In this document: piece by piece, positions 11,544-36,097 of the stretch
How the letters are laid out: each line of letters begins with the position of its first letter
Position numbering within the stretch: the stretch's first letter is position 1
IMG/VR virus record: IMGVR_UViG_3300029130_000018
DNA length: 43,040 nt
Reading direction: 5' to 3' (one strand)
Origin: a virus
Translations under genes and position numbers: made by a program
The notes under the pieces: model-generated
What the model saw: the letters and a program-made list of their open reading frames with translations, nothing else
The model's database searches: none
What the model was told of the DNA's origin: nothing

Positions 11544-14500
11544 ATGGCTTACAATCCTTTCCGAGACGGCAAGCAGACGCAGAGCACGCAGACCGGGCGA
11601 GTGAATCCGTTCCGGCAGACCAGCGCGGACAGAAGCGACAGAGAGCGCGTGATGCGCAACTGGCAGAGCGACGCGGAGCAGCACGGCATATTGAACAATC
11701 CCCAGTATACCGACGAGGGCAAAGCGTATCAGCAGATGGCGCAGGAATACGCAAAGTACGGCACACAGTATCAGAACCAGCTCAAACAGGGCATGACCGG
11801 GCGGCAGTGGGCGGCTGACACGGCGCGGCGGCTTGAGGAGCTTACACAGCAGCAGAGAGCGGCACAGCAGACGGAACGGCGCAGGCAGGACGCGGACGCT
11901 ATAGGCGATCCGGGACTGTGGGTGACTACGACGGAGCAGTACGACGCACTGCCAGAGGCTCGCAGACAGGAGGAGGCGCGCAGGGCAAAGCAGCGCCCTG
12001 CCGTAAGCCTTGCTGACTACGACAAGCGCATAGCGGAGCTGCGCAAAGAAAAGGAATGGGCAGACTACTTTGCCGAGGCCGGACTGCGCGACGAGCAGGG
12101 CTATACAAGGGGCGTTATCAGCGGACGCACGGCGTATGACGGCGCTGCCGATAAGCGCAGGCGCATAGCAGAACTGGAAAACAGGCTTGTGACGCTCAAT
12201 CAGAACAGCGGCTGGGCGAGCACGGTGGAGCAGTCGGACGAGATCGAGCGTGAGCGGAACGCCATCCAGCAGGAGCTGGAATCTCTCGGCGCGGGCTACA
12301 AAAACGCGCAGCAGGCGGACTATGCCACGAGCTGGCGCAACGGTGTCCGGGATAACTGGACGGATGAAGAGCGCAGCAACTTTTACTACCTCTACAACGA
12401 CAATAAGGACGAGGCACAGGCTTATGCGCGGCGCATCAATGACAGATACGCTTATTCGGACGCGCAGGCGAAGAAGGAAAAGGTCGGCGAGTGGGCAAGT
12501 CAGAATTTCTGGACGGGCTTGGCTGGCACAGCGGCTTCCGTGGGGATGACCATGACGTCTCTTGCCGACACGCTTGACAGGACAAAAGAATATGCGGCGA
12601 CCGGAGACGTCTCGGCCAAATCCGGCCTCACTCCCGCGGACATAGGCATGGCGATGACGTCCGCAATTGCCTCGTCGCTGAACAAAAAGAGTGGGACTAT
12701 CAACGACAATGTGTGGGTCATCGGCGGCAAGGGCTTGGGCGACCTATACGAGACGGGGGTAAGCATCCTCAACTCCCTCGCATCTGTATACATGCTGGGC
12801 GGCGTGGGCACGTACGCCAACTTCTTCGGGCAGGCGAGCAAAACGGCCTACGAGGAGGGCATACAGCGCGGGCTCAGCGTAGACAAGGCGCTGACCTACG
12901 GCTACGCAAGCGGTGTCGCCGAGGTCGCGGGCGAGATGTTCTCAATAGAGCATCTGATAAAGATGAAGAACCCCTCTTCACTCAAGGGCATTATCAAGAA
13001 CATCTTCGTGCAGGGCGGCATCGAGGCAAGCGAAGAGTCGGCCACGACGTTGATGAACACGATATCGGACGCAATAATAAACGGCGACAAGAGCGAGCTT
13101 GCGAGCAACTACTACGCGCTGATACAGGCGGGTTACAGCCCTGCGGACGCTGAAAAGATTGTAATAGCGGACTGGACTCAGGGTGTTATGTATGATGCCT
13201 TGGGCGGCTTTGTGAGCGGCGTTGCAAGCGCCGGTGTCCACAGCACCGTGCAGGGCGGCATGACATACAAGGGCGATGCGCAGGAGCTTATCGACTACGC
13301 CAAGAGCGAGGGCGCAGACACCGCAGCGGGCAAACGTGCGCAGAAATATGAAAAGCGCGTACAGAGCGGGAAGCGCATGACGAACTATCAGGCGGGGACG
13401 CTCACGGAGCTTGCGCAGGAGGCCGTGGTCTCGAAAGACCTCGATAACATCCGCGAGGCCGTCGGCAAGCGGCTTGCCGCGCTCGGTGAAAACAGCTCAG
13501 CGCTCACGGAAGCCGTTGTGCGGCAGGCGGTGCAGCAGGAGGCAAAGGCGACGGACATCAGCGTCCCGAAGGTCACGGAGAAGCAGCGCGGCCTGATCCA
13601 GAACAGCAAGGCGGCAAAGCGCGTGCTCTCCGAGATGGATATCGGCAACATGCGCATGGAGACCGCGGCGGAGCTGAGCGGGCATGACGGCAGCCAGTAT
13701 CAGCGCTCTAACGAGTGGGCACGGGATATCGGCACACGCATCATTGCACCCGGCGAATACGGTGTACGCAGCACCAACACCGTGACCGCAGAGGAGAAGC
13801 GGGCTGACGTGAAGGTCGGCGACGAGAGTGGAAAGGTTGTCGGCTTCAAGGACGGCATGGCGCGCGTCGAGGTCACGGAGAACGGCAAGAGTACCATCCG
13901 GGAGGTAAAGCCCGACGACGTGCAGCAGCTCCCCAAGCAGACGCGCAGGCTGTTTGACGAGATATCCCGCTATGACGGCGACACGCAGGCGGCAATGTAC
14001 GCGGCGTATATGCCGGGGCAGGACATAGAAGCATACGTGCAGGCAGCGGACACTGCGATGAACCTCTACGGCGCGCAGACCAAAGCAACACTTGAGCAGG
14101 CGCGCAGTTTCGGCAAGGCGACCTTCCGGATGCTGAGCGACGCCCAGCTCGACGCGCTGATGCAGGCAGGGCGCAAGCTCGCGGAGCAGCGAAAAGCGGC
14201 GGCGGAGCGCACCGGCGAGAGCAAGGGCGAGGTCAAGCAGGGCAAGGTGTCCTACGACGGCGGCGAGGCCGACGGGCGCAAGCTCAAAGCCCCAAGCAAG
14301 GAAGCGATAGACCGCATGAGCGACGCCGAGAAGACCCTCGCGGAGGCGCTGACGGCTACGGGCGTGAACGTTGTGTTCTACGAGAGCGAGGCAAACGCCG
14401 AGGGCAGATACAGCGGCGCGCAGGGCATGTACTACAACGGCACGGTTTACCTCGATGTGAACGCAGGCATGAACAGCGTGGAGAGCGGGCAGCGGACGAT

Positions 14501-17500
14501 AGTTCTGACGGCAGCGCACGAAATGACGCACTTCATCCGCGAGAACAGCGAGGCCGGATATATAGCGCTGCGCGAGTTCATAACCGACAGGCTCATGCAG
14601 CAGGGGCTGGATATCAAAGAGCTTGTCACGCAGAAGCGCGCAAGAGAGAGCCGCGAGTTGAGCTATGACGAGGCCGTGGAGGAGGTAATAGCCGACGCAT
14701 GCGAGACGGTTCTGACGGAGCCAACGGCAATAAGGCAGCTTGCAAGCGATAATATGCCTCTGGCAAAGAAGATACGCAAGTGGCTGAATGATTTCTTCGG
14801 GAAAATCAAAAGCGCGTTTGCGGGGCTTGAAGCCGTCCACGACGAGGCCAAGGCAATGACCGAGTACATGGACGAGCTGCGGGCGATGTGGGACGACGCA
14901 CTCGCCGACGCCGTGCGGAACAGGGCAAACAAAAACGCCGCCGAAAACGGCGACGGGGCGAAGTACAGCTTAAGGAGCTATAGCGAGCAGCAACTTCGGA
15001 ACTGGGAAAACAGCAAGCGCATTGTCGTTTATAGCAGCGAAGCGCAACTACGTGAATTTATCAAGGACGCAAGAGCAGGCAGAATTGGCGGACGGAAAAT
15101 GTACTTCGGAATGGTTCCGCAAAATCTAGCGCAAAAGATAATGTCGGAGACGGGAATAAATGTCGATGGTTATAACTGCTCTCTCTCGGCATATGAGATT
15201 CAAAAGATTTTCAAAGACCACGGCAACGCCGCCACTGAGCGCCTGCGGGGTCAGCGCGCTGTTACCGAGGACGATGTAGCTGCAATCCCAGAGATTTTAC
15301 AAAATGCTGATACTATAGTTCCTTCTGACAAGAAGTATAATGGCAAGCCTGCCATACAGTTTACCAAGAACGGGAACGGCAAGGTGACTCTTGTCGCCGT
15401 TGTATCCGACAAACATCTGGACTTGTTTGTCCAGACAATGTATGCAGGCATAAAAAAAGGAAACCTTGCTACGCCGACGGGTGAACAAGCCCCCATCAAT
15501 ACGCCCGAAGCGAGCCGCAGTACAGTTTCCAATAACAGTATACGCTCCTCTTCCGAAAATAGCAATACCAAAATTAAAAAATCTGAGAGAGATGCTGAAT
15601 ACCTGAGCGCGGTGAAGCGCGGAGACCTTGAGACCGCAAGGAGCATGGTGAATGAAGCGGCAGAAGACGCTGAATACGACATCACCGCATATCACGTCAG
15701 CATGAATGGCGCGTTTAACGTTTTTGATAGAAACAGGCTGGGCGAAAATACTGTGGACTATGCAGACGACGCAGCGACAGCGGCAACGGCGTATCTCGGC
15801 TTCTGGTTCAGCGATCATGACGTATCGAAGCCAACGCGCAGCTATGGCATGATACCCGGTGACGCGAGGCAGTTCCGGTTGAAAGCGGAGATATTGTACC
15901 CCATAGCTTTGCAGACACTGCACGACGAGTTGCTCAATGAGTATATTTCAGAGGACGCGATAGAACAGTACTCCGCTGGTGAATATTCGGCTATACGTGA
16001 AGCCGCAGAGGAATACGCGGCAGAGCTGCAGCGGAGAGGCTATTCAGGGCTGGAAGTGTGGGACAGCGAACTTGGCGGGACTTCGTATGTTATGTTTGAC
16101 CCGGAGCAGATAAAATCCGCTGAGCCTGTCGTGTATGACGATAACGGCAAGGTCATTCCCCTGTCGGAGCGCTTTAATTCAAAAAGCCGAGATGTCCGCT
16201 ATAGTAACCGCGACGTTGACCTGACTGCGAAGTATCCGCAGCTCAACCTCAACGAGGACATATCGGAGCTTGACGGCGTACCCGCAATAGAGCTTACCGA
16301 CGGCAGCGTTCTGCCGATAACCGAGCGCGACGGCAGATACCCGACGCACGTATCCTTCATAGAAGCGAACCGCATAGACGTTGACGACCTCAAGAGCGGC
16401 GGCTGGATAGGCAACGGCGTATATGACCCGTCTTTAACCAGCGACACGCAGCGCTATATAGAGCGGCAGCAGGCGAGAAAACGCGTGGCGGAGCTGACGG
16501 GCAAGCAGTATGAGCAGTTCAGGTACAGTATGCGCGACGATGCCATGACCGACAGGGAACTTCTCGCGAGGGCGCTTGACAGCGTAGCGGCGACGGAAAG
16601 CGAAAGAAAGATTCTTGCGCAGTACCGCACCGAATTTGACCGGTATCAGGAGCTATACGACAAGCTGGACGATGCGCAGATAGAATACAGCGCGGCGCGG
16701 CGGGCGGTAGACGACGCATACGCTCAGGCCAAGCGCAGCAAGCTCACCGCAGAGGAACGCCGCAGAACAGAAAGCGCATGGCGCGAAAGAATAGGCGCGC
16801 TCAAGGCAACGCAGCAGGAGACACGGGAGGCGCGCGACAAACTGCTGAAAGAGGTAGACGCGCAGGACAGAAAGCTTCTCAAACTGCGCGCGATGAACCC
16901 AGTGAAAGACATGCTTTCCCGCGCAAGGGCAGATATGCGCGAGACTATCAAGGCAAGGCAGAGCAAAACCGACACAAGGGCAAAAGTGCGCGATATGGCG
17001 AAGAAGCTCAGCGACCTGCTCCTCAAGGAATCGAAAGAGAAACACGTACTGCTTGAGCTTCAGAAGCCTGTGGCTGAGGTTCTGGACATGCTCAACCTCG
17101 ACACCGTCAACGCGGCGGAGCGCGTCGCCAAATACGACGCGGCCATAGCAAAGACGACAGACCCGGAGATAAAGCGCGAGCTTGCGGAGACCCGCGACAG
17201 AATACAGGCGCAGGGCGACAGACTCAAGACTCGGCTGGACGCGCTGCACACGGCTTATCAGGCAATCGCAAACTCTGCCGACCCGACGGTGGCGAACGGC
17301 TACGACGAGAACATAGCCGCGAAAATGCAGGAGGTCTCGCAGCTCGTAGGAGATACGCCGCTTGTGAAAATGACGCAGGAACAGCTCGACGCGGTACACG
17401 ATCTACTCAAGATGACCTACACCGTCGTATCGAAAGCGAACAAGGCGTTTGTGCTGAACCAGAAAGCGGGCATTGAGGAGAGGGCGCAGGCAGAGATCGA

Positions 17501-20500
17501 CAGGCTCTCCGCAACAGAGGGGGCAGACCTCGGGCTCAAGCCGGTGCAGTTTGCGAAGAGACAGTTCTGGTCAATGCTCAAGCCCGGCGAAATATTCCAC
17601 AAAGTGGGCGGCGAGCTTGAGCAGGCTTACAACGAGGTACGCAAGGGCGAAGACGTCAGAGCACGGGACGTTGTAACGGCGCGCTCGTTCTTCCTGCAGG
17701 CGGCCGAAAAGCACGGATACTTCTCTTGGGCGCTTGAGGAAAAGCACGATTTCGTCTCGGCTCAGGGCAGACCGTTCAGCCTGTCGCTTGATGATATGAT
17801 GTCCGTTTACGCTACCAGTCGGCGCGAGCAGGGCAAGAAACATCTTGAGGCGGGCGGCATAGTGTTCGGCAAGAACGGAAAGATAAAGGTCAAGAAAAAG
17901 GGCGTCACGCTGACGATGTCGCAGATCAAGGCGCGGGCATACACGCTCGACGAACAGGTGCTCGACGAGATCATAGGCAAGCTCACGCCGGAGCAAAAGG
18001 CTTTCGTAGAGGAGATGGAAAACTGGCTTTCCACAAAACCCGCCGAATGGGGCAATGAGGTATCGCGCGAGCTGTACGGTATAAACCTGTTCAAGGAGAA
18101 AGTCTACTGGCCTATCAAGAGCGCGTCGGAGTACCTGCAAAGCCGGAGCGGCGACAGCGACAATGTGAAAATCAAGAACAGCGGATTTACGCGCAGCACG
18201 GTCGAGAAAGCCAACAACCCGATATACATAGGCGGCTTTGTGGACACATGGAGCCAGCACGTATATGAGATGGCGACGTATCACGGCTTCACGCTGCCGC
18301 TTGAGGACTTCACGAGAATATTCAACTACGCGACCAGCGCGAGCGACATAGAAAACGGCGCGAACTCTGTCAAGGCGATGCTTACAAACGCGTTCGGCTC
18401 GGAAGCGCCGGTGCAGCAAATAGAACTCCTGCTCAAGGATGTGAACGGCAGCGCGCGGTCTGACCCCACGACGGAGCTGATGAACAAGGGGCTTGCGTTT
18501 ATGAAGAAGTACGCGGTCGCCGGTTCGCTGTCGGTATCAATTCAGCAGCCCTCGGCAATAGCCAGAGCAACGGCATATATCGACCCGAAGTATTTCGCCG
18601 GGGAGAAGATAACCGCCGAGAAGCATAAGGAGCTGTGGGAGCACATGAAGAAGTACGCCCCCGTGGCCGCCATAAAGGAAATAGGCTATTTTGATCAGGG
18701 ATTGGGCAGAAGCGCCCGCGAGTGGATGACCGCGCGGGAATATGGCGGACTTGCGGAAAAGGCGAAGGGTCTCGTGACTGACAGCAACTACCGGAGCGAC
18801 GTTATCATGGCGCTTCCGGGGCTGATGGACGAATTGACATGGTGCTCCATCTGGCAGGCGGTTGAGCGCGAAGTAGCGGACACGACAAACCTCAAAACCG
18901 GAAGCGAGGAATTCAACAAGCGAGTCGGTGACAGGTTCACGCAGATCATAACGGAGACGCAGGTCTACGACTCCGTGTTCTCCCGAAGCGCGATGATGAG
19001 GTCGAAGGATGTCGGTGTCAAGATGGCGACGGCGTTCATGGCGGAGCCGCTGACGAACGTCAACATGGTAGTTGACGCGATAGACGACTTCCGAAACGGG
19101 CGAAAGGCGCTCGGAGTGCGAAAGCTAGGTTCTGTTGTTGCTTCCATGCTTCTCAACAGCATACTCGTGTCGTTCGTTTATGCGGCGCGCAACGACGATG
19201 ACGATAAGAGCTACATCGAAAAATATATAGCTGCGCTGACCGGGGAGCTGAAAGACGGATTCAACCCGCTGACGTATATCCCCTATATCAAGGACGTTGT
19301 GTCGATAGTTCAGGGGTACGACGTGGAGCGCAACGACATGACCATGATTGCCGACCTCTGGAATGCGTACACCTCGCTGAAGAGCGACAAGAAGTCCACG
19401 TACAGAAAAATTGAGGACTTCGCGGGGCGCATTGCGCAGATATTCGGCCTTCCGCTCAAAAACGTGATGCGAGATATGCGGGCGGCCTACTACACATACG
19501 ACACCATCGCAAACGGCGAAGAGACGACGTGGCAGGGCGCGCTTCAGGCGGTTGCCGAGGGATGGACAGGAGAAAGCCCCTCAAACTCTGAGCAGCTTTA
19601 CGACGCGCTGGTGAGCGGGAACGTGAAACAGGCAGACAGGGTAAAGGCGCGGTTTGAGGACGAGAGCGCTGCGCAGGCCGCGGTGAAGAAGGTCATCCGC
19701 GAGAAATACGCGCCGACAGACGGCGGGAAGCAGAGCATAGACAAGCAGACCGCTATAAAGCAGTTACAGGACTACGCCGGAATGAGCAAGCAGGAGGCAG
19801 AAAAGCAGGTGGCCAAGTGGACGGTCTCTCTGGCGTATGGCTTCGAGTACGGCGACACCAAAGACGAGTACCTTAACGGCAACATAACCATAGACAAGGC
19901 GAAGCGCGTGCTTATGGGAGCCGGAGCGACGGACATGGAGGCGGACGCCAAGACGCTGCAGTGGAAGTTTGAGAAGGACACCGGCATAGCCTACGACGAT
20001 ATGTCTGACGCATACGTGAGCGGGGATATCTCGCGGAGCGATGCGGTGAACTACCTCGTCAAGTACGGCAAAACATACAGGGCGGATGCGGAAGCGACGG
20101 TTCAGCAGTGGCAGTGCGAGAAGGACACGGGCTTCAAGTACAGCGAGCTGAAGGATTTATATGTTGCGGGGACAATATCGGCGGATCGCGCGGCGGCGCT
20201 GCGGAGCAAATACGGCGGAGCCTCAGAGGACGACGCAAAGTCAACCGTGCTGCAGTGGCAGTGTGTCAAGGACACCGGCATTGAATACTCGGATATCCGC
20301 AAGGCGTACGAGGAGAAACGCGTCTCCGGCGAGGCCGTTGAAAACATGCTGATGAAGTACGGCGGCAAGAGCAAGGACGACGCCGCTGCCAGACGCGAGA
20401 AATACGACTTCACCATCGCAAACCCCGGAACCGAGGACATATCCGATGCGGCGGTGCAGAAGTACAACGAGTCCGTAGCGGCGGCAGGCATAAGCGGGAA

Positions 20501-20696
20501 GGATTATTATACATCGTGGCAGATGTACAACCGCACCGAATCGGACTATGACGAAAACGGCAAGCCGATAAGCTACTCAAAGCTTTACAAGATTGCGGCG
20601 TACATCGACAGTCTGAACCTGACCAATGCGCAGAAGGACGCGATGTTCTGCGCGTTCTATACCGCGCGGAACCTGCGGCGAACCCCGTGGCACTAA
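11544..20696 (+). CDS. Giant polyvalent protein (3,050 aa): hydrophobic Gly-rich region, HExxH module, PBECR-like nuclease module, ART-PolyVal-like module, long coiled coil, large conserved domain, four C-terminal repeats
   Basis: A single uninterrupted ORF with an RBS. Motifs AAHEMTHF, IQKIFKDHGN...VTEDDVAAIPEIL and PEQIKSAEPVVYDDNGKVIPLSERFN. See findings. Confidence 0.85.
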   Translation: MAYNPFRDGKQTQSTQTGRVNPFRQTSADRSDRERVMRNWQSDAEQHGILNNPQYTDEGKAYQQMAQEYAKYGTQYQNQLKQGMTGRQWAADTARRLEELTQQQRAAQQTERRRQDADAIGDPGLWVTTTEQYDALPEARRQEEARRAKQRPAVSLADYDKRIAELRKEKEWADYFAEAGLRDEQGYTRGVISGRTAYDGAADKRRRIAELENRLVTLNQNSGWASTVEQSDEIERERNAIQQELESLGAGYKNAQQADYATSWRNGVRDNWTDEERSNFYYLYNDNKDEAQAYARRINDRYAYSDAQAKKEKVGEWASQNFWTGLAGTAASVGMTMTSLADTLDRTKEYAATGDVSAKSGLTPADIGMAMTSAIASSLNKKSGTINDNVWVIGGKGLGDLYETGVSILNSLASVYMLGGVGTYANFFGQASKTAYEEGIQRGLSVDKALTYGYASGVAEVAGEMFSIEHLIKMKNPSSLKGIIKNIFVQGGIEASEESATTLMNTISDAIINGDKSELASNYYALIQAGYSPADAEKIVIADWTQGVMYDALGGFVSGVASAGVHSTVQGGMTYKGDAQELIDYAKSEGADTAAGKRAQKYEKRVQSGKRMTNYQAGTLTELAQEAVVSKDLDNIREAVGKRLAALGENSSALTEAVVRQAVQQEAKATDISVPKVTEKQRGLIQNSKAAKRVLSEMDIGNMRMETAAELSGHDGSQYQRSNEWARDIGTRIIAPGEYGVRSTNTVTAEEKRADVKVGDESGKVVGFKDGMARVEVTENGKSTIREVKPDDVQQLPKQTRRLFDEISRYDGDTQAAMYAAYMPGQDIEAYVQAADTAMNLYGAQTKATLEQARSFGKATFRMLSDAQLDALMQAGRKLAEQRKAAAERTGESKGEVKQGKVSYDGGEADGRKLKAPSKEAIDRMSDAEKTLAEALTATGVNVVFYESEANAEGRYSGAQGMYYNGTVYLDVNAGMNSVESGQRTIVLTAAHEMTHFIRENSEAGYIALREFITDRLMQQGLDIKELVTQKRARESRELSYDEAVEEVIADACETVLTEPTAIRQLASDNMPLAKKIRKWLNDFFGKIKSAFAGLEAVHDEAKAMTEYMDELRAMWDDALADAVRNRANKNAAENGDGAKYSLRSYSEQQLRNWENSKRIVVYSSEAQLREFIKDARAGRIGGRKMYFGMVPQNLAQKIMSETGINVDGYNCSLSAYEIQKIFKDHGNAATERLRGQRAVTEDDVAAIPEILQNADTIVPSDKKYNGKPAIQFTKNGNGKVTLVAVVSDKHLDLFVQTMYAGIKKGNLATPTGEQAPINTPEASRSTVSNNSIRSSSENSNTKIKKSERDAEYLSAVKRGDLETARSMVNEAAEDAEYDITAYHVSMNGAFNVFDRNRLGENTVDYADDAATAATAYLGFWFSDHDVSKPTRSYGMIPGDARQFRLKAEILYPIALQTLHDELLNEYISEDAIEQYSAGEYSAIREAAEEYAAELQRRGYSGLEVWDSELGGTSYVMFDPEQIKSAEPVVYDDNGKVIPLSERFNSKSRDVRYSNRDVDLTAKYPQLNLNEDISELDGVPAIELTDGSVLPITERDGRYPTHVSFIEANRIDVDDLKSGGWIGNGVYDPSLTSDTQRYIERQQARKRVAELTGKQYEQFRYSMRDDAMTDRELLARALDSVAATESERKILAQYRTEFDRYQELYDKLDDAQIEYSAARRAVDDAYAQAKRSKLTAEERRRTESAWRERIGALKATQQETREARDKLLKEVDAQDRKLLKLRAMNPVKDMLSRARADMRETIKARQSKTDTRAKVRDMAKKLSDLLLKESKEKHVLLELQKPVAEVLDMLNLDTVNAAERVAKYDAAIAKTTDPEIKRELAETRDRIQAQGDRLKTRLDALHTAYQAIANSADPTVANGYDENIAAKMQEVSQLVGDTPLVKMTQEQLDAVHDLLKMTYTVVSKANKAFVLNQKAGIEERAQAEIDRLSATEGADLGLKPVQFAKRQFWSMLKPGEIFHKVGGELEQAYNEVRKGEDVRARDVVTARSFFLQAAEKHGYFSWALEEKHDFVSAQGRPFSLSLDDMMSVYATSRREQGKKHLEAGGIVFGKNGKIKVKKKGVTLTMSQIKARAYTLDEQVLDEIIGKLTPEQKAFVEEMENWLSTKPAEWGNEVSRELYGINLFKEKVYWPIKSASEYLQSRSGDSDNVKIKNSGFTRSTVEKANNPIYIGGFVDTWSQHVYEMATYHGFTLPLEDFTRIFNYATSASDIENGANSVKAMLTNAFGSEAPVQQIELLLKDVNGSARSDPTTELMNKGLAFMKKYAVAGSLSVSIQQPSAIARATAYIDPKYFAGEKITAEKHKELWEHMKKYAPVAAIKEIGYFDQGLGRSAREWMTAREYGGLAEKAKGLVTDSNYRSDVIMALPGLMDELTWCSIWQAVEREVADTTNLKTGSEEFNKRVGDRFTQIITETQVYDSVFSRSAMMRSKDVGVKMATAFMAEPLTNVNMVVDAIDDFRNGRKALGVRKLGSVVASMLLNSILVSFVYAARNDDDDKSYIEKYIAALTGELKDGFNPLTYIPYIKDVVSIVQGYDVERNDMTMIADLWNAYTSLKSDKKSTYRKIEDFAGRIAQIFGLPLKNVMRDMRAAYYTYDTIANGEETTWQGALQAVAEGWTGESPSNSEQLYDALVSGNVKQADRVKARFEDESAAQAAVKKVIREKYAPTDGGKQSIDKQTAIKQLQDYAGMSKQEAEKQVAKWTVSLAYGFEYGDTKDEYLNGNITIDKAKRVLMGAGATDMEADAKTLQWKFEKDTGIAYDDMSDAYVSGDISRSDAVNYLVKYGKTYRADAEATVQQWQCEKDTGFKYSELKDLYVAGTISADRAAALRSKYGGASEDDAKSTVLQWQCVKDTGIEYSDIRKAYEEKRVSGEAVENMLMKYGGKSKDDAAARREKYDFTIANPGTEDISDAAVQKYNESVAAAGISGKDYYTSWQMYNRTESDYDENGKPISYSKLYKIAAYIDSLNLTNAQKDAMFCAFYTARNLRRTPWH

Positions 20697-33914: not shown

Positions 33915-33956
33915 GAACAAGCCCGATACGGAAATCACTCCGTATCGGGCTTGTTC
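33915..33956. terminator. 18-bp perfect hairpin, bidirectional terminator at the 3' end of the repressor gene
   Basis: GAACAAGCCCGATACGGA-AATCAC-TCCGTATCGGGCTTGTTC. The minus strand continues T-rich (TTATTTTGTTTTTT). Confidence 0.6.
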
Positions 33957-34327
33957 AGTTTATCGGCGAGTCTTCGGAACACTGCGGAGAGCTCCTTCCA
34001 CTCTTCGACAGTGGTCTCGGCCATAAATTCAATGAGCAGCTGCTCAATATCCGAGCGCTTGCCCTCGGAGAGCTGGCCAATGTACTCATCTATAACGTCG
34101 CGCCGCGACTTCTTCGGGAACGGCTGACCGGTGCCGGTACGCAGCCACACCTCATCTACATTATATACTCGGCAGATATCCGCTATTGTGCGGTCGCTGG
34201 GGACTTTACGGCCGGAACAAAGCTCCGAGACGAAGGGACTCGACAAGCCGAGTTGCTTGGCAAATTCGTTGCGCTTCAGACCGAAGTGTTCAATGCAAAA
34301 AGAAATCCGTTCTGAGATAGTGCTCAT
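33935..34327 (-). CDS. CI-like repressor (XRE HTH, no peptidase domain)
   Basis: ERISFCIEHFGLKRNEFAKQLGLSSPFVSELCSGRKVPSDRTIADICRVYNVDEVWL. Transcribed divergently from the early promoter. AAAGGAGG RBS. Confidence 0.85.
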   Translation of the reverse strand: MSTISERISFCIEHFGLKRNEFAKQLGLSSPFVSELCSGRKVPSDRTIADICRVYNVDEVWLRTGTGQPFPKKSRRDVIDEYIGQLSEGKRSDIEQLLIEFMAETTVEEWKELSAVFRRLADKLNKPDTE

Positions 34328-34351
34328 TTTAACCACCTCCTTTCATAAAGA

Positions 34352-34380
34352 AGTATAAAGGCAGCGAGACAAAAAGTCAA
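34352..34380 (-). promoter_or_regulatory. Leftward (repressor) promoter TTGACT-17-TATACT
   Basis: -35 at 34380-34375 and -10 at 34357-34352 on the minus strand, ~18 nt upstream of the RBS. Confidence 0.55.
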
Positions 34381-34390
34381 GTAAAAAAAA

Positions 34391-34431
34391 TAGCTCAGCG
34401 AATTAAAAACACTTGACAAAGTAGCTGAGCG
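34391..34431. promoter_or_regulatory. Putative operators TAGCTCAGCG / TAGCTGAGCG (third, degenerate copy at 34462-34476)
   Basis: The two 10-mers differ only at the central base. One lies between the divergent promoters and the other lies in the spacer of the rightward promoter. Confidence 0.45.
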
Positions 34432-34441
34432 ATGCTAATAT
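34413..34441 (+). promoter_or_regulatory. Early rightward promoter TTGACA-17-TAATAT
   Basis: Consensus -35 at 34413-34418, a 17-bp spacer and -10 at 34436-34441. Confidence 0.65.
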
Positions 34442-34501
34442 GTAGCCAAGCTAATAAAATGTTAGCTGGAGTGAGCAATCAAACACATGAGAGGAGAACA
34501 C

Positions 34502-34801
34502 ATGATGATCAAAAAGGAAGCTAATCTGAGCGAGCGCATCAAAATGGTTAAGGCGATGGAGTTTATCTGCCGGCAGATAAACGACGAGGACGTATTTGAG
34601 TGCTGGCTCGTAAACGGCGTTGCAGACGACGACATCGAGTATGGCGATTTGAGCGTAAACACGACTGAGCCTGACGCGGCGCACTACGCAGAGAACGACG
34701 AACGGTTTGCCGACCTGATGGACACCTTCCTCTGGGTCATGAAGAAGGCAGGGAAAAGCGGCGGACTTTACTGCGACGGAGTGGTGAGCAAGGAAGAGTA
34801 A
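34502..34801 (+). CDS. Acidic early protein (99 aa), first gene of the rightward operon
   Basis: GAGAGGAG RBS (MMIKKEANLSERIKMVKAMEFICRQINDEDVFECW...). Many D/E residues. No HTH recognised. Confidence 0.65.
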   Translation: MMIKKEANLSERIKMVKAMEFICRQINDEDVFECWLVNGVADDDIEYGDLSVNTTEPDAAHYAENDERFADLMDTFLWVMKKAGKSGGLYCDGVVSKEE

Positions 34802-35153
34802 AAAACCGGGGCTTATCACATAAGCTGTGCGCATGGCGCGGTAGGGTGGGCGGCAGAGAAAGCGAGCGGGGCTGTAACCTCCGCAGGCTTCCTCTGCACA
34901 GGCTCCCAATCGGCCGCAGATATCTCCTCCGCTCAATTTACAGGATGCAAAGCAGCGCCTGATGGGCAGCGTCAACCCGGTGGATATCTCCTGTTACAGC
35001 AGGTGCTTAAGCCGGTTCCGTTCTTTCAGTGTGCGAGCTTCGCAGGCTTCATTCTCCTGCAAACTGAGAACGGGTTGCCGGGAGCAACAGGAAGGGCGAC
35101 ATTACGGAAGATATGACCTCTCCCATAAGCATCACCTCCTTTCGCTCCGGAGC
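34801..35153 (-). ncRNA. Candidate non-coding RNA, module A (strand provisional)
   Basis: Promoter at 35188-35160 and hairpin plus U-run at 34825-34801 on the minus strand. No credible ORF. Shares ordered blocks with module B. Confidence 0.4.
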
Positions 35154-35159
35154 AAGCCC

Positions 35160-35188
35160 ATCCTATCACGCCATGCGCACAGAGTCAA
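35160..35188 (-). promoter_or_regulatory. Leftward promoter TTGACT-17-TAGGAT (module A)
   Basis: Read on the minus strand. The spacer contains the 14-mer CTGTGCGCATGGCG, which is repeated in inverted orientation at 34825-34838. Confidence 0.45.
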
Positions 35189-35190
35189 AC

Positions 35191-35601
35191 AAAAAACGGG
35201 GCTTATGCGCCCCGCCTTAATGCAGCCGAGGACGGTCACAAGCCCGTGAAAATGCAGAGTGAGGACAAGGACGCCGAGAGAAAACCGGTGCATCGTCCAT
35301 ACACCGGTTTCCTCTGCACTTAGCTCCCGACACAGCGCAGATGCTTCCCTACACCAGAATTCAGCGCCGTTCCGATGCCAGAGAGGCGGTTGCGGAAGCG
35401 CAGGGGATGCGAGCCCGGGGAGCATCACTTGGAACGAACAAGTGCTTAGCTGTGTCTCAGTACTTCAACGCACGCGTCGCGCCCGGGGCAAGTACCGGGG
35501 CGGTGTACTGAATCAAGGGAGCGCCGGAGAGGCAGCATGAAAGAACCTAAGAGGCTTTCCATGACAACGTTTTTTTGATTGGTCGGTAAGATTACCGCGG
35601 C
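35191..35601 (-). ncRNA. Candidate non-coding RNA, module B (strand provisional)
   Basis: Promoter at 35636-35608 and terminator CGGGGC-GCAUAA-GCCCCG-UUUUUU at 35214-35191 on the minus strand. Several GC-rich local hairpins. Confidence 0.45.
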
Positions 35602-35607
35602 GTCCTT

Positions 35608-35636
35608 ATTCTACAAAAGATTTCAGAAAATGGCAA
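35608..35636 (-). promoter_or_regulatory. Leftward promoter TTGCCA-17-TAGAAT (module B)
   Basis: The minus strand reads tttcTTGCCAttttctgaaatcttttgTAGAATaagg. Confidence 0.5.
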
Positions 35637-35657
35637 GAAAAAAACGGAGGTGAAACA

Positions 35658-35804
35658 ATGAGCGAGCAGGAGAAAAAGGCGGCGAAGGAGCTGCTGGACG
35701 ACCTGAAGAAGATCCCGGCGGACGGCGCGGATTATATGCGCGGGTATATGCGGGGCAGGCTGGACGGCATCAAGAACCGCAAGGACAAGGAGGACGAGGA
35801 ATGA
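35658..35804 (+). CDS. Small hypothetical protein (48 aa)
   Basis: ACGGAGGTGA RBS and an ATGA overlap with the next gene. Translated by hand. Confidence 0.45.
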   Translation: MSEQEKKAAKELLDDLKKIPADGADYMRGYMRGRLDGIKNRKDKEDEE

Positions 35805-36097
35805 ACGAAGACCGTGCATATAGAGAACAGGGCACCGCGGCGTACCTAAAACTGCGAATACCATTCGACTATTCGAACTTAAAGAAGGAAATCGCCAAGC
35901 AGTACAAAACGCGAAGAGCCTTTGCACGGGCGATGGGGCTCCCTGAGAACTCGGTGTATCGGAAGTTGAACGGGAAAGCATACTGGAAGCAGCGAGAAAT
36001 CGTGGCGGCAAGCATGTTGCTTGACATACCGTTTTATCTGATGCCGGCTTATTTCTTCAACGTGGATACGAAGCGAGAAGAGGGAGGCACGACATGA
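35801..36097 (+). CDS. DUF739-like / Cro-type HTH protein
   Basis: FDYSNLKKEIAKQYKTRRAFARAMGLPENSVYRKLNGKAYWKQREIVAASMLLDIP...YFF. Confidence 0.7.
   Translation: MNEDRAYREQGTAAYLKLRIPFDYSNLKKEIAKQYKTRRAFARAMGLPENSVYRKLNGKAYWKQREIVAASMLLDIPFYLMPAYFFNVDTKREEGGTT

What the first reader, a model, noticed from the sequence alone, without database searches (positions are those of the whole stretch)
34802..35657. 0.85-kb ORF-poor gap in the early operon: two paralogous ~0.4-kb modules, each framed by a leftward promoter and an intrinsic terminator (candidate large structured or antisense RNA pair)
Genes in this genome are otherwise packed with 1-10-nt overlaps. In contrast, 34802-35657 has no ORF with an RBS or normal composition: the three ORFs of 90 aa or more are Arg/Ser/Cys/Pro-rich shadows.

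The gap splits into two related units, 34801-35190 and 35191 to about 35601. They share ordered blocks:
- AAAAA(C/A)CGGGGCTTAT at 34801 and 35191
- TTCCTCTGCAC at 34889 and 35309
- GCTCCC at 34902 and 35323
- GCAGAT at 34916 and 35337
- GTGCTTA(A)G at 35003 and 35442

Read on the minus strand, each unit begins behind a good sigma70-type promoter. These are TTGCCA-17-TAGAAT at 35636-35608 and TTGACT-17-TAGGAT at 35188-35160. Each unit ends in a hairpin plus U-run. These are CGGGGC-GCAUAA-GCCCCG-U6 at 35214-35191 and GCUUAU-GUG-AUAAGC...U5 at 34825-34801.

Both units converge on the early promoter at 34413-34441, so early lytic transcripts must cross them in antisense before reaching the replication and recombination genes.

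The size, GC-rich helices and prophage context recall the large ornate phage-associated RNAs (GOLLD/ROOL class). I cannot assign a family by eye. It may be a new RNA class, or an antisense/transcription-interference switch.
Basis: partly seen in the sequence, partly recalled or inferred. Interest (0 to 1): 0.85.

Follow-up and report, generated by a model that had tools for sequence, protein, structure and literature searches.

The report
Twister ribozyme between two antisense mini-gene cassettes
The "empty" 0.85-kb gap in this gut prophage's early operon is not one big ornate RNA: it holds a self-cleaving twister ribozyme on the early transcript, flanked by two related, optional cassettes that point the other way and each carry their own promoter, ribosome-binding site and tiny gene.

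Summary
The interpretation needs rebuilding.

1. **Twister ribozyme.** 35214-35265 (+) is a compact, P3-less type-P1 twister (Rfam E=3.5e-11, 55.1 bits, below the gathering score of 67.2). In 27 phage relatives P1, P2 and pseudoknot T1 covary. A GC hairpin (35197-35214) abuts it. Across unrelated phages the layout is stop codon, hairpin, twister, RBS. I infer that it processes mRNA between cistrons.

2. **Two paralogous cassettes.** U1 (34825-35188) and U2 (35267-35636) are paralogues (alignment z=6.3). Both read on the minus strand. Each has a sigma70-like promoter, a Shine-Dalgarno site and a short ORF:
   - U1: 25 aa, intact in 24 sequence contexts.
   - U2: 38 aa, intact in 16.
   
   A conserved, helix-rich body of about 230-280 nt follows. 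It ends at a terminator or, in relatives, at a minus-strand cargo gene.

3. **Independent modules.** U1, twister and U2 occur independently among related phages. More distant relatives have no gap.

4. **No known large RNA.** Nothing matches GOLLD, ROOL or any other Rfam family.

The function of the cassettes is inferred, not shown. They may be moron-like, type-I-toxin-like or antisense regulators.

The parts
34413..34441 (+). Early (lytic) promoter TTGACA-17-TAATAT with TG. This is context: transcripts from here cross the whole gap.
   Evidence: The divergent CI-like HTH repressor gene at 33935-34336 (-) is identified.
34801..34824 (.). Remnant junction. It holds half of the CGGGGC hairpin (AAAAACCGGGGC) fused to TTATCACATAAG.
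   Evidence: Relatives have either the full hairpin AAAAACCGGGGCATATGCCCCG here, or the SD and start of a minus-strand gene (…TTTCACATAAG). The terminator scan does not report it.
34825..35188 (-). Cassette U1. It consists of a promoter, SD, 25-aa ORF and a structured body of about 225 nt. It is optional among relatives.
35160..35188 (-). U1 promoter-like site TTGACT-17-TAGGAT with an extended -10 TG. A T-run lies upstream on the minus strand.
   Evidence: It is identical in 22 of 24 U1 contexts and kept (TTGACT-17-TAGGAT) in the divergent L208 copy.
35132..35142 (-). Shine-Dalgarno AAAGGAGGTGA of U1 ORF1. On the + strand it reads as a mimic of the 16S rRNA 3' end.
   Evidence: It is predicted to be sequestered in a hairpin with codons 7-13.
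35049..35126 (-). U1 ORF1, 25 codons plus stop: MGEVISSVMSPFLLLPATRSQFAGE*.
   Evidence: It is intact in 24 unique contexts with 16 peptide variants. The stop codon switches between TGA and TAA. All indels in U1 lie outside it.
34825..34851 (.). Left arm of the 27-bp inverted repeat (P1) that closes U1.
   Evidence: There are two compensatory double changes in L208.
35156..35182 (.). Right arm of U1 P1. It coincides with the spacer and -10 of the U1 promoter, so it lies upstream of the predicted minus-strand start site.
35197..35214 (+). GC hairpin CGGGGC-TTATGC-GCCCCG that abuts twister P1. On the minus strand it reads as hairpin plus U6, which is terminator-like.
   Evidence: A hairpin with unrelated sequence sits 0-3 nt before P1 in most of about 25 twister lineages.
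35214..35265 (+). Type-P1 twister ribozyme without P3. The predicted cleavage is between U35218 and A35219.
   Evidence: RF03160, 55.1 bits, E=3.5e-11; the same hit in four other loci; covariation in 27 sequences, with 0 of 500 shuffles reaching the observed values.
35267..35636 (-). Cassette U2, a paralogue of U1. It consists of a promoter, a 38-aa ORF and a structured body. It is optional among relatives. In L028/L038 it sits directly behind the early promoter.
35608..35636 (-). U2 promoter-like site TTGCCA-17-TAGAAT.
35446..35562 (-). U2 ORF, 38 codons plus stop: MESLLGSFMLPL…. Its N-terminus resembles that of U1 ORF1. In this window its SD is replaced by an A-run. Most relatives have GAAAGGGGGTG.
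35646..35804 (+). SD GGAGGTG and the 48-aa early gene. This is context. In relatives without U2 the twister abuts this SD.

Best explanation
The gap is a mosaic of three independent modules.

**(A) Hairpin plus twister on the + strand.** The early lytic transcript carries a GC hairpin followed directly by a compact, P3-less type-P1 twister ribozyme (35197-35265). The ribozyme cuts the polycistronic mRNA at U35218/A35219.
- The upstream piece then ends in a protective hairpin with a 2',3'-cyclic phosphate.
- The downstream piece begins with a 5'-OH and the folded ribozyme just ahead of the next gene's ribosome-binding site.
- This 'stop codon, hairpin, twister, SD' layout is the ancestral state. 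It is seen in relatives and in unrelated phages.

**(B, C) Two cassettes on the minus strand.** Two paralogous cassettes, U1 and U2, have been inserted on either side of the twister in the opposite orientation. Each is a small autonomous transcription unit with these parts:
- a sigma70-type promoter;
- a Shine-Dalgarno site;
- a short ORF (25 or 38 aa) whose initiation region is locked in a hairpin;
- a conserved helix-rich body of 230-280 nt;
- an end that is either a terminator or, in relatives, a minus-strand cargo gene (a 101-aa Zn-ribbon/TM protein or a 138-aa PadR-like protein).

They behave like morons, meaning leader cassettes expressed from the prophage.

**Consequence of the orientation.** Because the cassettes converge on the early operon, their RNAs are fully complementary to the early transcript. 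I infer that they damp or process early transcripts, and that the twister uncouples the downstream early genes from that sense/antisense region.

**What is shown and what is inferred**
- Shown: the anatomy, the paralogy, the modularity, the twister fold with covariation, and ORF conservation.
- Inferred: promoter activity, translation, cleavage in vivo and any regulatory role.
For: **Twister**
- Rfam hit at E=3.5e-11, with the same hit in Roseburia phage Shimadzu and three relatives.
- 27 distinct sequences were compared. 87.5% of cells are paired, against 71.9% in shuffles. 11 of 16 pairs show double changes. P2 is 100% paired. The T1 pair switches A-U to C-G in 3 sequences. 0 of 500 shuffles reach the observed values.
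- An upstream hairpin abuts P1 with a 0-3 nt gap in most lineages, each time with different sequence.
- A same-strand ORF ends 9-40 nt upstream in about 17 of 26 lineages. An SD or start lies within about 40 nt downstream in about 12 of 26.

**Cassettes**
- U1 and U2 are related at z=6.3.
- Helices P1, P2, P4, P5 and P6 occur in the same order with different sequences.
- There are 8 compensatory pairs among U1 variants.
- The promoters are found by the scan and are conserved, including in the divergent L208 copy.
- U1 has a perfect SD plus a 25-codon ORF, intact in 24 contexts. The stop codon switches between TGA and TAA. Indels of 1, 7, 15 and about 55 nt all lie outside the ORF.
- Among the first 14 U1 variants, 6 of 8 variable sites in codons 9-25 are third positions.
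- Downstream on the minus strand there is either a minus-oriented hairpin plus U-run, or the SD and start of gene A or gene B.

**Modularity**
- U1+TW, TW+U2, U2 alone, TW alone and all three together are all observed.
- Phages that share the 104-aa gene at 50-70% identity have no gap.
- On the minus strand, RNA folding z-scores are -4.4 to -7.9.
Against: - There are no expression data. The promoters are only consensus matches, and the count in the region is not above chance.
- When the three extra U1 variants are added, the third-position bias weakens. By my count it becomes 6 of 11 sites, with a binomial p of about 0.12.
- The U2 ORF shows 1 synonymous against 3 non-synonymous changes (my count). 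Part of the U1/U2 peptide similarity can be explained by a shared RNA hairpin.
- The wobble-pair test does not pick a strand: 123 cells are G.U on + and 138 on -.
- The 27-bp closing helix P1 of U1 includes the promoter spacer and -10. It therefore cannot form in the RNA started at that promoter, yet it shows compensatory changes and conserved G.U pairs on the + strand. That points to a role in the + strand transcript, in read-through RNA or at the DNA level, which the cassette model does not explain.
- The family is narrow, with all copies from one human-gut phage group, so the covariation statistics are thin.
- The twister scores below Rfam's gathering threshold (55.1 against 67.2).
Confidence: 0.6

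Rival explanations
1. U1 and U2 are large structured non-coding RNA domains of the + strand early transcript, i.e. a new ornate RNA class. They are released or positioned by the twister, and the minus-strand ORFs and promoters are incidental.
For: - Closing helices P1 enclose each unit only in + strand or read-through RNA. U1 P1 has two compensatory double changes and two conserved G.U pairs on the + strand.
- U2 sits directly behind the + strand early promoter in L028/L038.
- The + strand folds better than shuffles, with z of -2.9 to -5.0.
- There are 8 compensatory pairs.
- A ribozyme lies on the same strand between the units.
Against: - No Rfam family matches.
- The units and the twister occur independently of one another.
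- The conserved motif TTCCTCTGCAC and about 55 nt of an arm are deleted in L198/L200, while the minus-strand ORF is kept.
- A perfect 11-nt SD plus a frame-preserved ORF lies on the minus strand in all 24 contexts.
- Minus-oriented terminators or minus-strand genes follow U1.
- P2 keeps a conserved G.U on the minus strand, which is A.C on the + strand, in U1, U2 and L208.
- The minus strand folds more stably: alifold -159.7 against -137.7 kcal/mol.
Confidence: 0.13
2. U1 and U2 are type I toxin-antitoxin-like loci. A translationally locked mRNA of about 350 nt encodes a small, partly hydrophobic peptide. The complementary early-operon transcript acts as the antisense partner.
For: - The small ORFs are 25 and 38 aa.
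- The SD and start codon are predicted to lie inside a stable hairpin.
- The mRNA is long and structured, with conserved long-range complementarities such as GCUCCC/GGGAGC.
- The setting is a prophage, and a convergent antisense transcript is unavoidable.
Against: - No dedicated + strand promoter for an antitoxin RNA lies inside the gap.
- The peptides have no Pfam or PHROG match, and the region matches no Rfam family.
- The U1 peptide has only about 15 hydrophobic residues and includes two prolines.
- The U2 peptide is basic, not hydrophobic.
- The window's U2 has lost its SD.
- In five of the 16 U1 contexts listed, U1 is simply the leader of a downstream gene.
Confidence: 0.12
3. The cassettes make untranslated minus-strand antisense RNAs, comparable to lambda OOP/PRE or P22 sar. 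These RNAs reinforce immunity by transcriptional interference and RNase III cleavage of early transcripts. The ORFs are not expressed as peptides.
For: - The minus promoters converge on the early promoter.
- In L028/L038 the U2 promoter faces the early promoter about 400 nt away. No terminator lies before the repressor gene region, which resembles a PRE-like geometry.
- The RNA bodies are structured.
- The U2 ORF shows no synonymous bias (my count), and U2 lacks an SD in this window.
Against: - U1 carries a perfect extended SD at the right spacing.
- The ORF length is invariant in 24 contexts despite indels elsewhere.
- The stop codon is preserved through a TGA/TAA switch.
Confidence: 0.12
4. 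U1 is a MITE-like mobile DNA element with 27-bp terminal inverted repeats and flanking direct repeats. Its RNA-level features are secondary.
For: - It has 27-bp terminal inverted repeats.
- In L040 and L002 it is flanked by near-identical 24-nt copies of the CGGGGC hairpin.
- It shows presence/absence polymorphism.
Against: - The repeat sequence occurs nowhere else in 2.9 million viral contigs except at this locus.
- U2 has different and much shorter arms.
- Internal helices show compensatory changes.
- No transposase is associated with it.
Confidence: 0.03

Closest known systems
Type-P1 twister self-cleaving ribozyme (Rfam RF03160, clan CL00120)
   Same: - It has P1, the UAA internal loop with the U-A cleavage site, P2, P4 with the loop GGUC(A/C)CAAGCCCG, and GAG(U/G)G.
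- P1, P2 and pseudoknot T1 covary.
- It lies among phage genes, as the literature notes for bacterial twisters (PMC6765202).
   Different: - It lacks the optional P3 hairpin, with CGAG in its place, so it scores 55.1 bits, below the curated 67.2.
- It always carries an extra GC hairpin immediately 5' of P1 that is not part of the family model.
- Its T1 pair is A-U instead of the consensus C-G.
Phage morons: promoter, gene, terminator units inserted between phage genes (the HK97/HK022 concept; from my own knowledge)
   Same: - The cassettes are optional inserts between conserved genes.
- Each has its own sigma70-like promoter and a hairpin/U-run end.
- In relatives they carry cargo genes, namely small membrane or DNA-binding proteins.
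   Different: - In this window the cassettes carry only a 25-aa or 38-aa ORF plus a long conserved structured RNA.
- They are antisense to an essential early operon.
- Their G+C content does not differ from that of the neighbouring DNA.
Type I toxin-antitoxin mRNAs (hok/sok; prophage txpA/RatA and bsrG/SR4 of B. subtilis; from my own knowledge)
   Same: - The structured mRNA is about 350-400 nt long.
- The ORF is very small and its SD and start are sequestered.
- A complementary transcript comes from the other strand.
- The setting is a prophage.
   Different: - There is no dedicated antitoxin promoter.
- The peptides are not clearly membrane-spanning.
- There is no sequence or CM match to any known family.
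Antisense and convergent-promoter control in temperate phages (lambda OOP and PRE, P22 sar, coliphage 186 pR/pL; from my own knowledge)
   Same: - Minus-strand promoters lie inside the early operon and fire towards the early promoter and repressor gene.
   Different: - The RNAs here would be much longer (about 350-400 nt) and ornate.
- They carry an SD and an ORF.
- They are duplicated in tandem.
- They are paired with a ribozyme on the sense strand.
GOLLD / ROOL large ornate prophage RNAs
   Same: - The setting is a prophage.
- The sequence is G+C-rich and has many helices.
   Different: - No covariance-model match on either strand, even at E<=10.
- The units are about 350 nt, optional and tolerant of deletions.
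- No tRNA genes are nearby.
- SD and ORF features are present.

Membership tests
Twister ribozyme (type P1) | Helices P1, P2 and P4 in order, with the U-A cleavage dinucleotide in the P1/P2 internal loop | tested here: met
   The cmscan alignment covers model positions 1-68. P2 is 100% paired with 4 covarying pairs. The inner P1 pairs covary.
Twister ribozyme (type P1) | Pseudoknot T1 between the P4 loop and the 3' GAGGG | tested here: met
   CAC/GUG is present in 24 sequences and CCC/GGG in 3. There are no mixed combinations.
Twister ribozyme (type P1) | Pseudoknot T2 (GC after P2 with GC of the P4 loop) | tested here: inconclusive
   G14 C15 and G31 C32 are complementary but invariant in alignment A4, so no covariation is possible.
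Twister ribozyme (type P1) | Reaches Rfam's curated gathering score | tested here: not met
   The score is 55.1 bits against 67.2. The shortfall comes from deletion of the optional P3 hairpin. The E-value is still 3.5e-11.
Twister ribozyme (type P1) | Site-specific self-cleavage giving 2',3'-cyclic phosphate and 5'-OH ends | not testable with these tools
   This needs an in vitro transcription/cleavage assay or cyclic-phosphate/5'-OH RNA-seq.
GOLLD / ROOL / other Rfam large RNAs | Match to the family covariance model | tested here: not met
   No hit at the gathering threshold in the whole window. Over 34300-36000 at E<=10 there are only chance-level miRNA and lncRNA hits.
GOLLD / ROOL / other Rfam large RNAs | A single conserved RNA of 500-800 nt, often next to tRNA genes | tested here: not met
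   There are two separable units of about 350 nt plus a ribozyme. The window has no tRNA genes.
Phage moron | Present between the same flanking genes in some relatives and absent in others | tested here: met
Phage moron | Own promoter upstream and factor-independent terminator downstream | tested here: inconclusive
   Consensus promoters are found and are conserved. Relatives have good minus-oriented terminators. In this window the left terminator is degenerate. There are no transcript data.
Phage moron | Expressed from the repressed prophage | not testable with these tools
   This needs RNA-seq of a lysogen.
Type I toxin-antitoxin | Small hydrophobic (membrane) toxin peptide | tested here: inconclusive
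   The U1 peptide has a stretch of about 15 hydrophobic residues with two prolines. The U2 peptide is basic.
Type I toxin-antitoxin | Dedicated antisense sRNA with its own promoter | tested here: not met
   No + strand promoter-like site lies inside 34802-35657. Only early-operon read-through is available.
Type I toxin-antitoxin | Translation initiation region sequestered in the full-length mRNA | tested here: met
   In the predicted fold of 35153-34801 (-), the SD and AUG pair with codons 7-13. This is a prediction only.
MITE-like element | Terminal inverted repeats plus many dispersed copies | tested here: not met
   Terminal inverted repeats are present. The repeat pattern, however, is found only at this locus in viral contigs.

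The most novel reading that the evidence does not exclude
Hairpin-plus-twister is a general phage device for cutting polycistronic mRNA between cistrons without terminating transcription. The cut leaves a hairpin-protected upstream message and a downstream message with a 5'-OH.

In this phage group the device has been combined with a previously undescribed family of structured antisense RNAs of about 350 nt that carry a small ORF (U1 and U2). These RNAs are type-I-toxin-like or OOP/PRE-like. Together the parts would form a ribozyme-plus-antisense switch on the early lysis-lysogeny operon. The closing helices loop the inserted cassettes out of the sense transcript.
Probability: 0.2. Interest if true: 0.75.

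Novelty: new variant of a known kind. Interest (0 to 1): 0.45.

Why it matters
**Twister function.** The biological role of bacterial and phage twister ribozymes is still described as largely unknown. 'Processing of polycistronic transcripts' is only a suggestion (PMC6765202, section 13). This locus gives a concrete, testable layout: stop codon, hairpin, twister, SD. That layout recurs in about 25 unrelated phage lineages.

**Natural controls.** This phage group also supplies natural variants for comparison:
- twister alone;
- twister plus U1;
- twister plus U2;
- all three modules;
- no gap at all.

**Gene annotation.** The case shows that an apparently non-coding gap in a gut phage can hide very small genes with their own expression signals. 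Standard gene callers miss them: none of the three peptide sequences looked up (two U1 variants and the U2 peptide) is in a collection of 15 billion proteins.

**If the cassettes prove to be antisense regulators or toxin-like units,** they would add a new layer to lysis-lysogeny control in abundant human-gut prophages. The neighbouring 48-aa gene is found on more than 550 contigs.

Tried and rejected
- **Rfam.** I scanned the whole window at the gathering threshold and the region at E<=10. Nothing turned up except the twister. GOLLD, ROOL, HEARO, OLE, raiA, group I/II introns, tmRNA, RNase P and known type I TA RNAs are all rejected.
- **Exact-pattern scans with the conserved U1/U2 block.**
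  - In GTDB species genomes, all 20 hits were unrelated.
  - In metagenomes, 8 of 18 hits were real, and all came from the same human-gut phage group.
- **nhmmer.** I searched U1 and U2 against all 242 loci held. No distant relatives appeared.
- **Strand assignment by wobble pairs.** The counts are balanced, 123 against 138, so the test is not informative.
- **A second minus-strand ORF** (GTG CAG AGG AA…, shared by U1 and U2). I rejected it because it shows 2 synonymous against 6 non-synonymous changes, counted by eye.
- **MITE hypothesis.** The terminal repeat is found nowhere else.
- **Protein families.** Pfam and PHROGs give nothing for the peptides, the flanking 104-aa and 48-aa proteins, or cargo gene A.
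- **Homologues of cargo gene A.** Only two clusters exist.
- **Cultured phage relatives.** None were found. The only matches are two unannotated fecal phage records at 77% identity over 3-5% of the query.
Full report
**1. Context**

The window is an uncultured temperate phage or prophage from the human gut.
- A CI-like HTH repressor gene (33935-34336, minus strand) faces a divergent promoter pair. The rightward early promoter at 34413-34441 is TTGACA-17-TAATAT.
- The gap at 34802-35657 lies between a 104-aa gene and a 48-aa gene.
- That 48-aa gene occurs, with an identical sequence, on more than 550 public contigs, so the phage group is common.
- No cultured phage is close.

**2. Checking the observation**

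The repeated blocks, the two minus-strand promoter-like sites and the hairpin plus U-run at 35218-35193 are at the stated coordinates. U1 (34825-35182) and U2 (35262-35612) align with a score 6.3 sd above dinucleotide shuffles, and none of 300 shuffles reached it.

Two statements fail.
- The left 'terminator' is not detected by the scan. It is a recombination scar.
- The claim that no ORF has an RBS is wrong (see section 5).

**3. The Rfam match: a twister ribozyme on the + strand**

A permissive Rfam scan gives one strong hit. It is a type-P1 twister at 35214-35265 on the + strand, with 55.1 bits and E=3.5e-11. The whole model is aligned except the optional P3 hairpin, which is why the score falls below the gathering score of 67.2.

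The only BLAST hit of the gap in 50,697 phage genomes is this same core, in Roseburia phage Shimadzu.

A pattern scan for the core found about 30 further viral contigs. I aligned 27 distinct sequences.
- P2 is paired in every sequence, with four covarying pairs.
- The inner P1 pairs take four to five different pair types.
- The T1 pseudoknot switches cleanly between CAC/GUG and CCC/GGG.
- No shuffle of 500 reaches any of the five measures.
- Sliding the partners by 1-3 columns collapses pairing to 20-52%.

I regard the fold as established. Catalysis is inferred from family membership. The predicted cut is between U35218 and A35219.

**4. A hairpin belongs to the twister, and the pair sits between cistrons**

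In most of the roughly 25 lineages a GC-rich hairpin of unrelated sequence ends 0-3 nt before P1. The stems seen are CCCGCA/TGCGGG, CGGGGC/GCCCCG, GGGCGG/CCGCCC, GGGGCAGG/CCTGCCCC and others.
- A same-strand ORF ends 9-40 nt upstream in about 17 of 26 lineages.
- An SD or start codon follows within about 40 nt in about 12 of 26.
- In close relatives of this window that lack U2, the twister's last bases run straight into the SD of the 48-aa gene: GAGUGAGGACAAGGAGGUGAAACAAUG.

The recurring layout is therefore stop codon, hairpin, twister, SD. My inference is that the ribozyme severs the polycistronic mRNA without stopping transcription.
- The 5' product ends in a hairpin plus a few nucleotides with a cyclic phosphate. 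That is a classic exonuclease block.
- The 3' product starts with a 5'-OH and a compact fold just ahead of the next RBS.

This fits the unproven suggestion in the literature that bacterial twisters process polycistronic transcripts (PMC6765202).

In this window the hairpin (35197-35214) is preceded by A6. On the minus strand it therefore also reads as an intrinsic terminator. It may serve both strands.

**5. U1 and U2 are minus-strand cassettes**

Read on the minus strand, U1 consists of these parts:
- the promoter TTGACT-17-TGnTAGGAT (35188-35160);
- an 11-nt Shine-Dalgarno site, AAAGGAGGTGA (35142-35132);
- after 5 nt, an ATG that opens a 25-codon ORF (35126-35049);
- a body of about 225 nt.

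The ORF is intact in all 24 distinct sequence contexts found, with 16 peptide variants.
- Its N-terminal block exists in several haplotypes that are all in frame, including MGEVISSVM, MGEIISSVM, METLVASFM and METLAASFM.
- Its stop codon alternates between TGA and TAA.
- Every indel in U1 (1, 7, 15 and about 55 nt) lies outside it.
- Among the first 14 variants, 6 of 8 variable sites in codons 9-25 are third positions.
- With three more variants the bias weakens, to 6 of 11 sites by my count. The case for coding is therefore good but not conclusive.

U2 has the same order of parts: promoter TTGCCA-17-TAGAAT (35636-35608), an SD (GAAAGGGGGTG in most relatives, lost in this window), and a 38-codon ORF (35562-35446).
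- The ORF is intact in 16 contexts, and one copy starts with GTG.
- Its first 12 residues, MESLLGSFMLPL, resemble METLVASFMSPF of U1. Part of that similarity also fits a shared RNA hairpin.

**6. What lies downstream of U1 on the minus strand**

In relatives it is one of two things.
- A good minus-oriented intrinsic terminator: CGGGGC-ATAT-GCCCCG plus U-run, or ACGGCC…GGCCGT.
- With no terminator, the SD and start codon of a minus-strand gene. This is either gene A (101 aa, Zn-ribbon plus a C-terminal membrane helix, seen on more than 115 contigs) or gene B (138 aa, named PadR-like by IMG).

A 75%-identical gene A in another phage (L208) is again preceded by a divergent U1. That copy has the promoter, SD and ORF intact but no twister.

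This is the strongest argument that U1 is transcribed leftward and acts as a promoter/leader unit. In this window the cargo gene has been lost.

**7. Modularity**

Among relatives I found these combinations:
- U1+twister: L002, L041, L121, L192, L198 and others.
- Twister+U2: L204.
- U2 alone, directly behind the early promoter: L028, L038.
- Twister alone: L206.
- All three modules: the window, L003, L030, L033, L040, L199 and others.

Phages whose 104-aa protein is 50-70% identical have tightly packed genes and no gap.

U1 is flanked in some genomes by two almost identical copies of the 24-nt A-run plus hairpin. This suggests it was inserted next to the twister's hairpin.

**8. RNA structure of the cassette bodies**

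Both units fold far better than shuffles.
- On the minus strand z is -4.4 to -7.9.
- On the + strand z is -2.9 to -5.0.

Among U1 variants 8 predicted pairs show double compensatory changes. These include five consecutive pairs of one helix, GAUAUC against GCGCUC.

U1 and U2 share the same order of helices (P1, P2, P4, P5, P6) with different sequences. Conserved structure is therefore real.

Which strand carries it is not resolved.
- Wobble pairs are balanced, with 123 cells G.U on + and 138 on -.
- P2 keeps a G.U on the minus strand in U1, U2 and L208.
- P4, P5 and P1 have G.U on the + strand.
- The minus strand is thermodynamically favoured: alifold -159.7 against -137.7 kcal/mol.
- The body is not indispensable. 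L198 and L200 lack 7 nt of P2, including the 'signature' TCTGCAC, and about 55 nt of an arm, yet they keep the ORF.

**9. An unexplained feature**

The 27-bp helix that closes U1 (34825-34851 with 35156-35182) has its right arm on the promoter spacer and -10. It therefore lies upstream of the predicted start site and cannot form in the cassette's own RNA. Even so, L208 shows two G-C to A-U double changes in it.

There are four possible explanations:
- The helix forms in the + strand early transcript and loops the inserted cassette out.
- It forms in read-through minus RNA.
- It is a pair of protein-binding sites that evolve in concert.
- It is a DNA-level palindrome.

U2 has an analogous 10-bp pair (35267-35276 with 35598-35607). 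This is the main evidence for the rival '+ strand RNA' reading.

**10. Mechanism proposed (inferred)**

- In the lysogen the early promoter is repressed. The U1 and U2 promoters can fire leftward. They would make stable structured RNAs of about 350-400 nt and, if the sequestered SD opens, small peptides. In relatives they would also express cargo genes.
- After induction, early transcription must cross both cassettes in antisense. This creates perfect sense/antisense partners and head-on transcription.
- The hairpin-twister then cuts the early transcript between U1 and the downstream genes. This gives the upstream message a protected 3' end and releases the downstream messages from the duplex-prone region.

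None of these steps has been observed. The anatomy supports each of them but proves none.

**11. Verdict**

The finding is real but ordinary in its parts.
- A sub-threshold member of a known ribozyme class sits in a now clearer genomic role.
- Two moron-like antisense small-ORF cassettes carry a conserved but dispensable structured body and are restricted to one gut phage group.
- The gap is not a GOLLD/ROOL-type RNA.
- The most useful outcome is the recurrent stop, hairpin, twister, SD architecture, together with a set of natural presence/absence variants that make twister function testable.

Noticed in passing
L211-L242 and L001 (viral contigs), e.g. L212:463-520, L221, L228, L242: A P3-less twister sub-lineage (core GCCNAGGACGGTCNCAAGCCCGTG) occurs in about 30 unrelated viral contigs. 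It almost always has a GC hairpin abutting P1, and it often lies between a stop codon and the next SD. All copies that were scanned with Rfam score below the gathering threshold, so routine annotation would miss them.
   Followed up: partly
L208:1940-2120 (shown reverse-complemented): There are two tandem copies of a unit of about 50 nt (CCCTGTCATT[CG]CGAGGAGCG…GACGTGG[GC]AATCCG…CCCC) between the divergent U1 copy and the next early gene. They occupy the position where this window has the twister. I did not analyse them.
   Followed up: no
window 33915-33956 (-): A 19-bp perfect hairpin overlaps the 3' end of the repressor gene. The scan reports it as terminator-like, but the tail is not very U-rich.
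   Followed up: no
window 34352-34441: Back-to-back promoter-like sites lie between the repressor and the early operon: TTGACT-17-TATACT leftward and TTGACA-17-TAATAT rightward. Repeated TAGCT(C/G)AGCGA-like motifs sit around them and are probably operators.
   Followed up: no
window 11544-20696 (+): A single ORF of 3050 aa lies in the structural region. It is unusually long for a phage of about 43 kb. I did not examine it.
   Followed up: no
L200:786-1271 (-): A relative of this phage carries a ToxN_toxin (PF13958) gene in the integrase-proximal accessory region, where other relatives carry different genes. This region looks like a variable defence or accessory hotspot.
   Followed up: no
window 35132-35142 (+) and 35643-35653 (+): On the + strand the complement of the U1 SD reads UCACCUCCUUU, which mimics the 16S rRNA 3' end. 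It is 91% complementary to the RBS of the 48-aa gene downstream (I6). The twister lies between the two. It is untested whether this pairing matters in the uncut early transcript.
   Followed up: no
window 35563-35590 (-): This window's U2 has an A-run (CAAAAAAACG) where most relatives have the SD GAAAGGGGGTG. This particular copy of the U2 ORF may therefore be poorly translated or decaying.
   Followed up: partly
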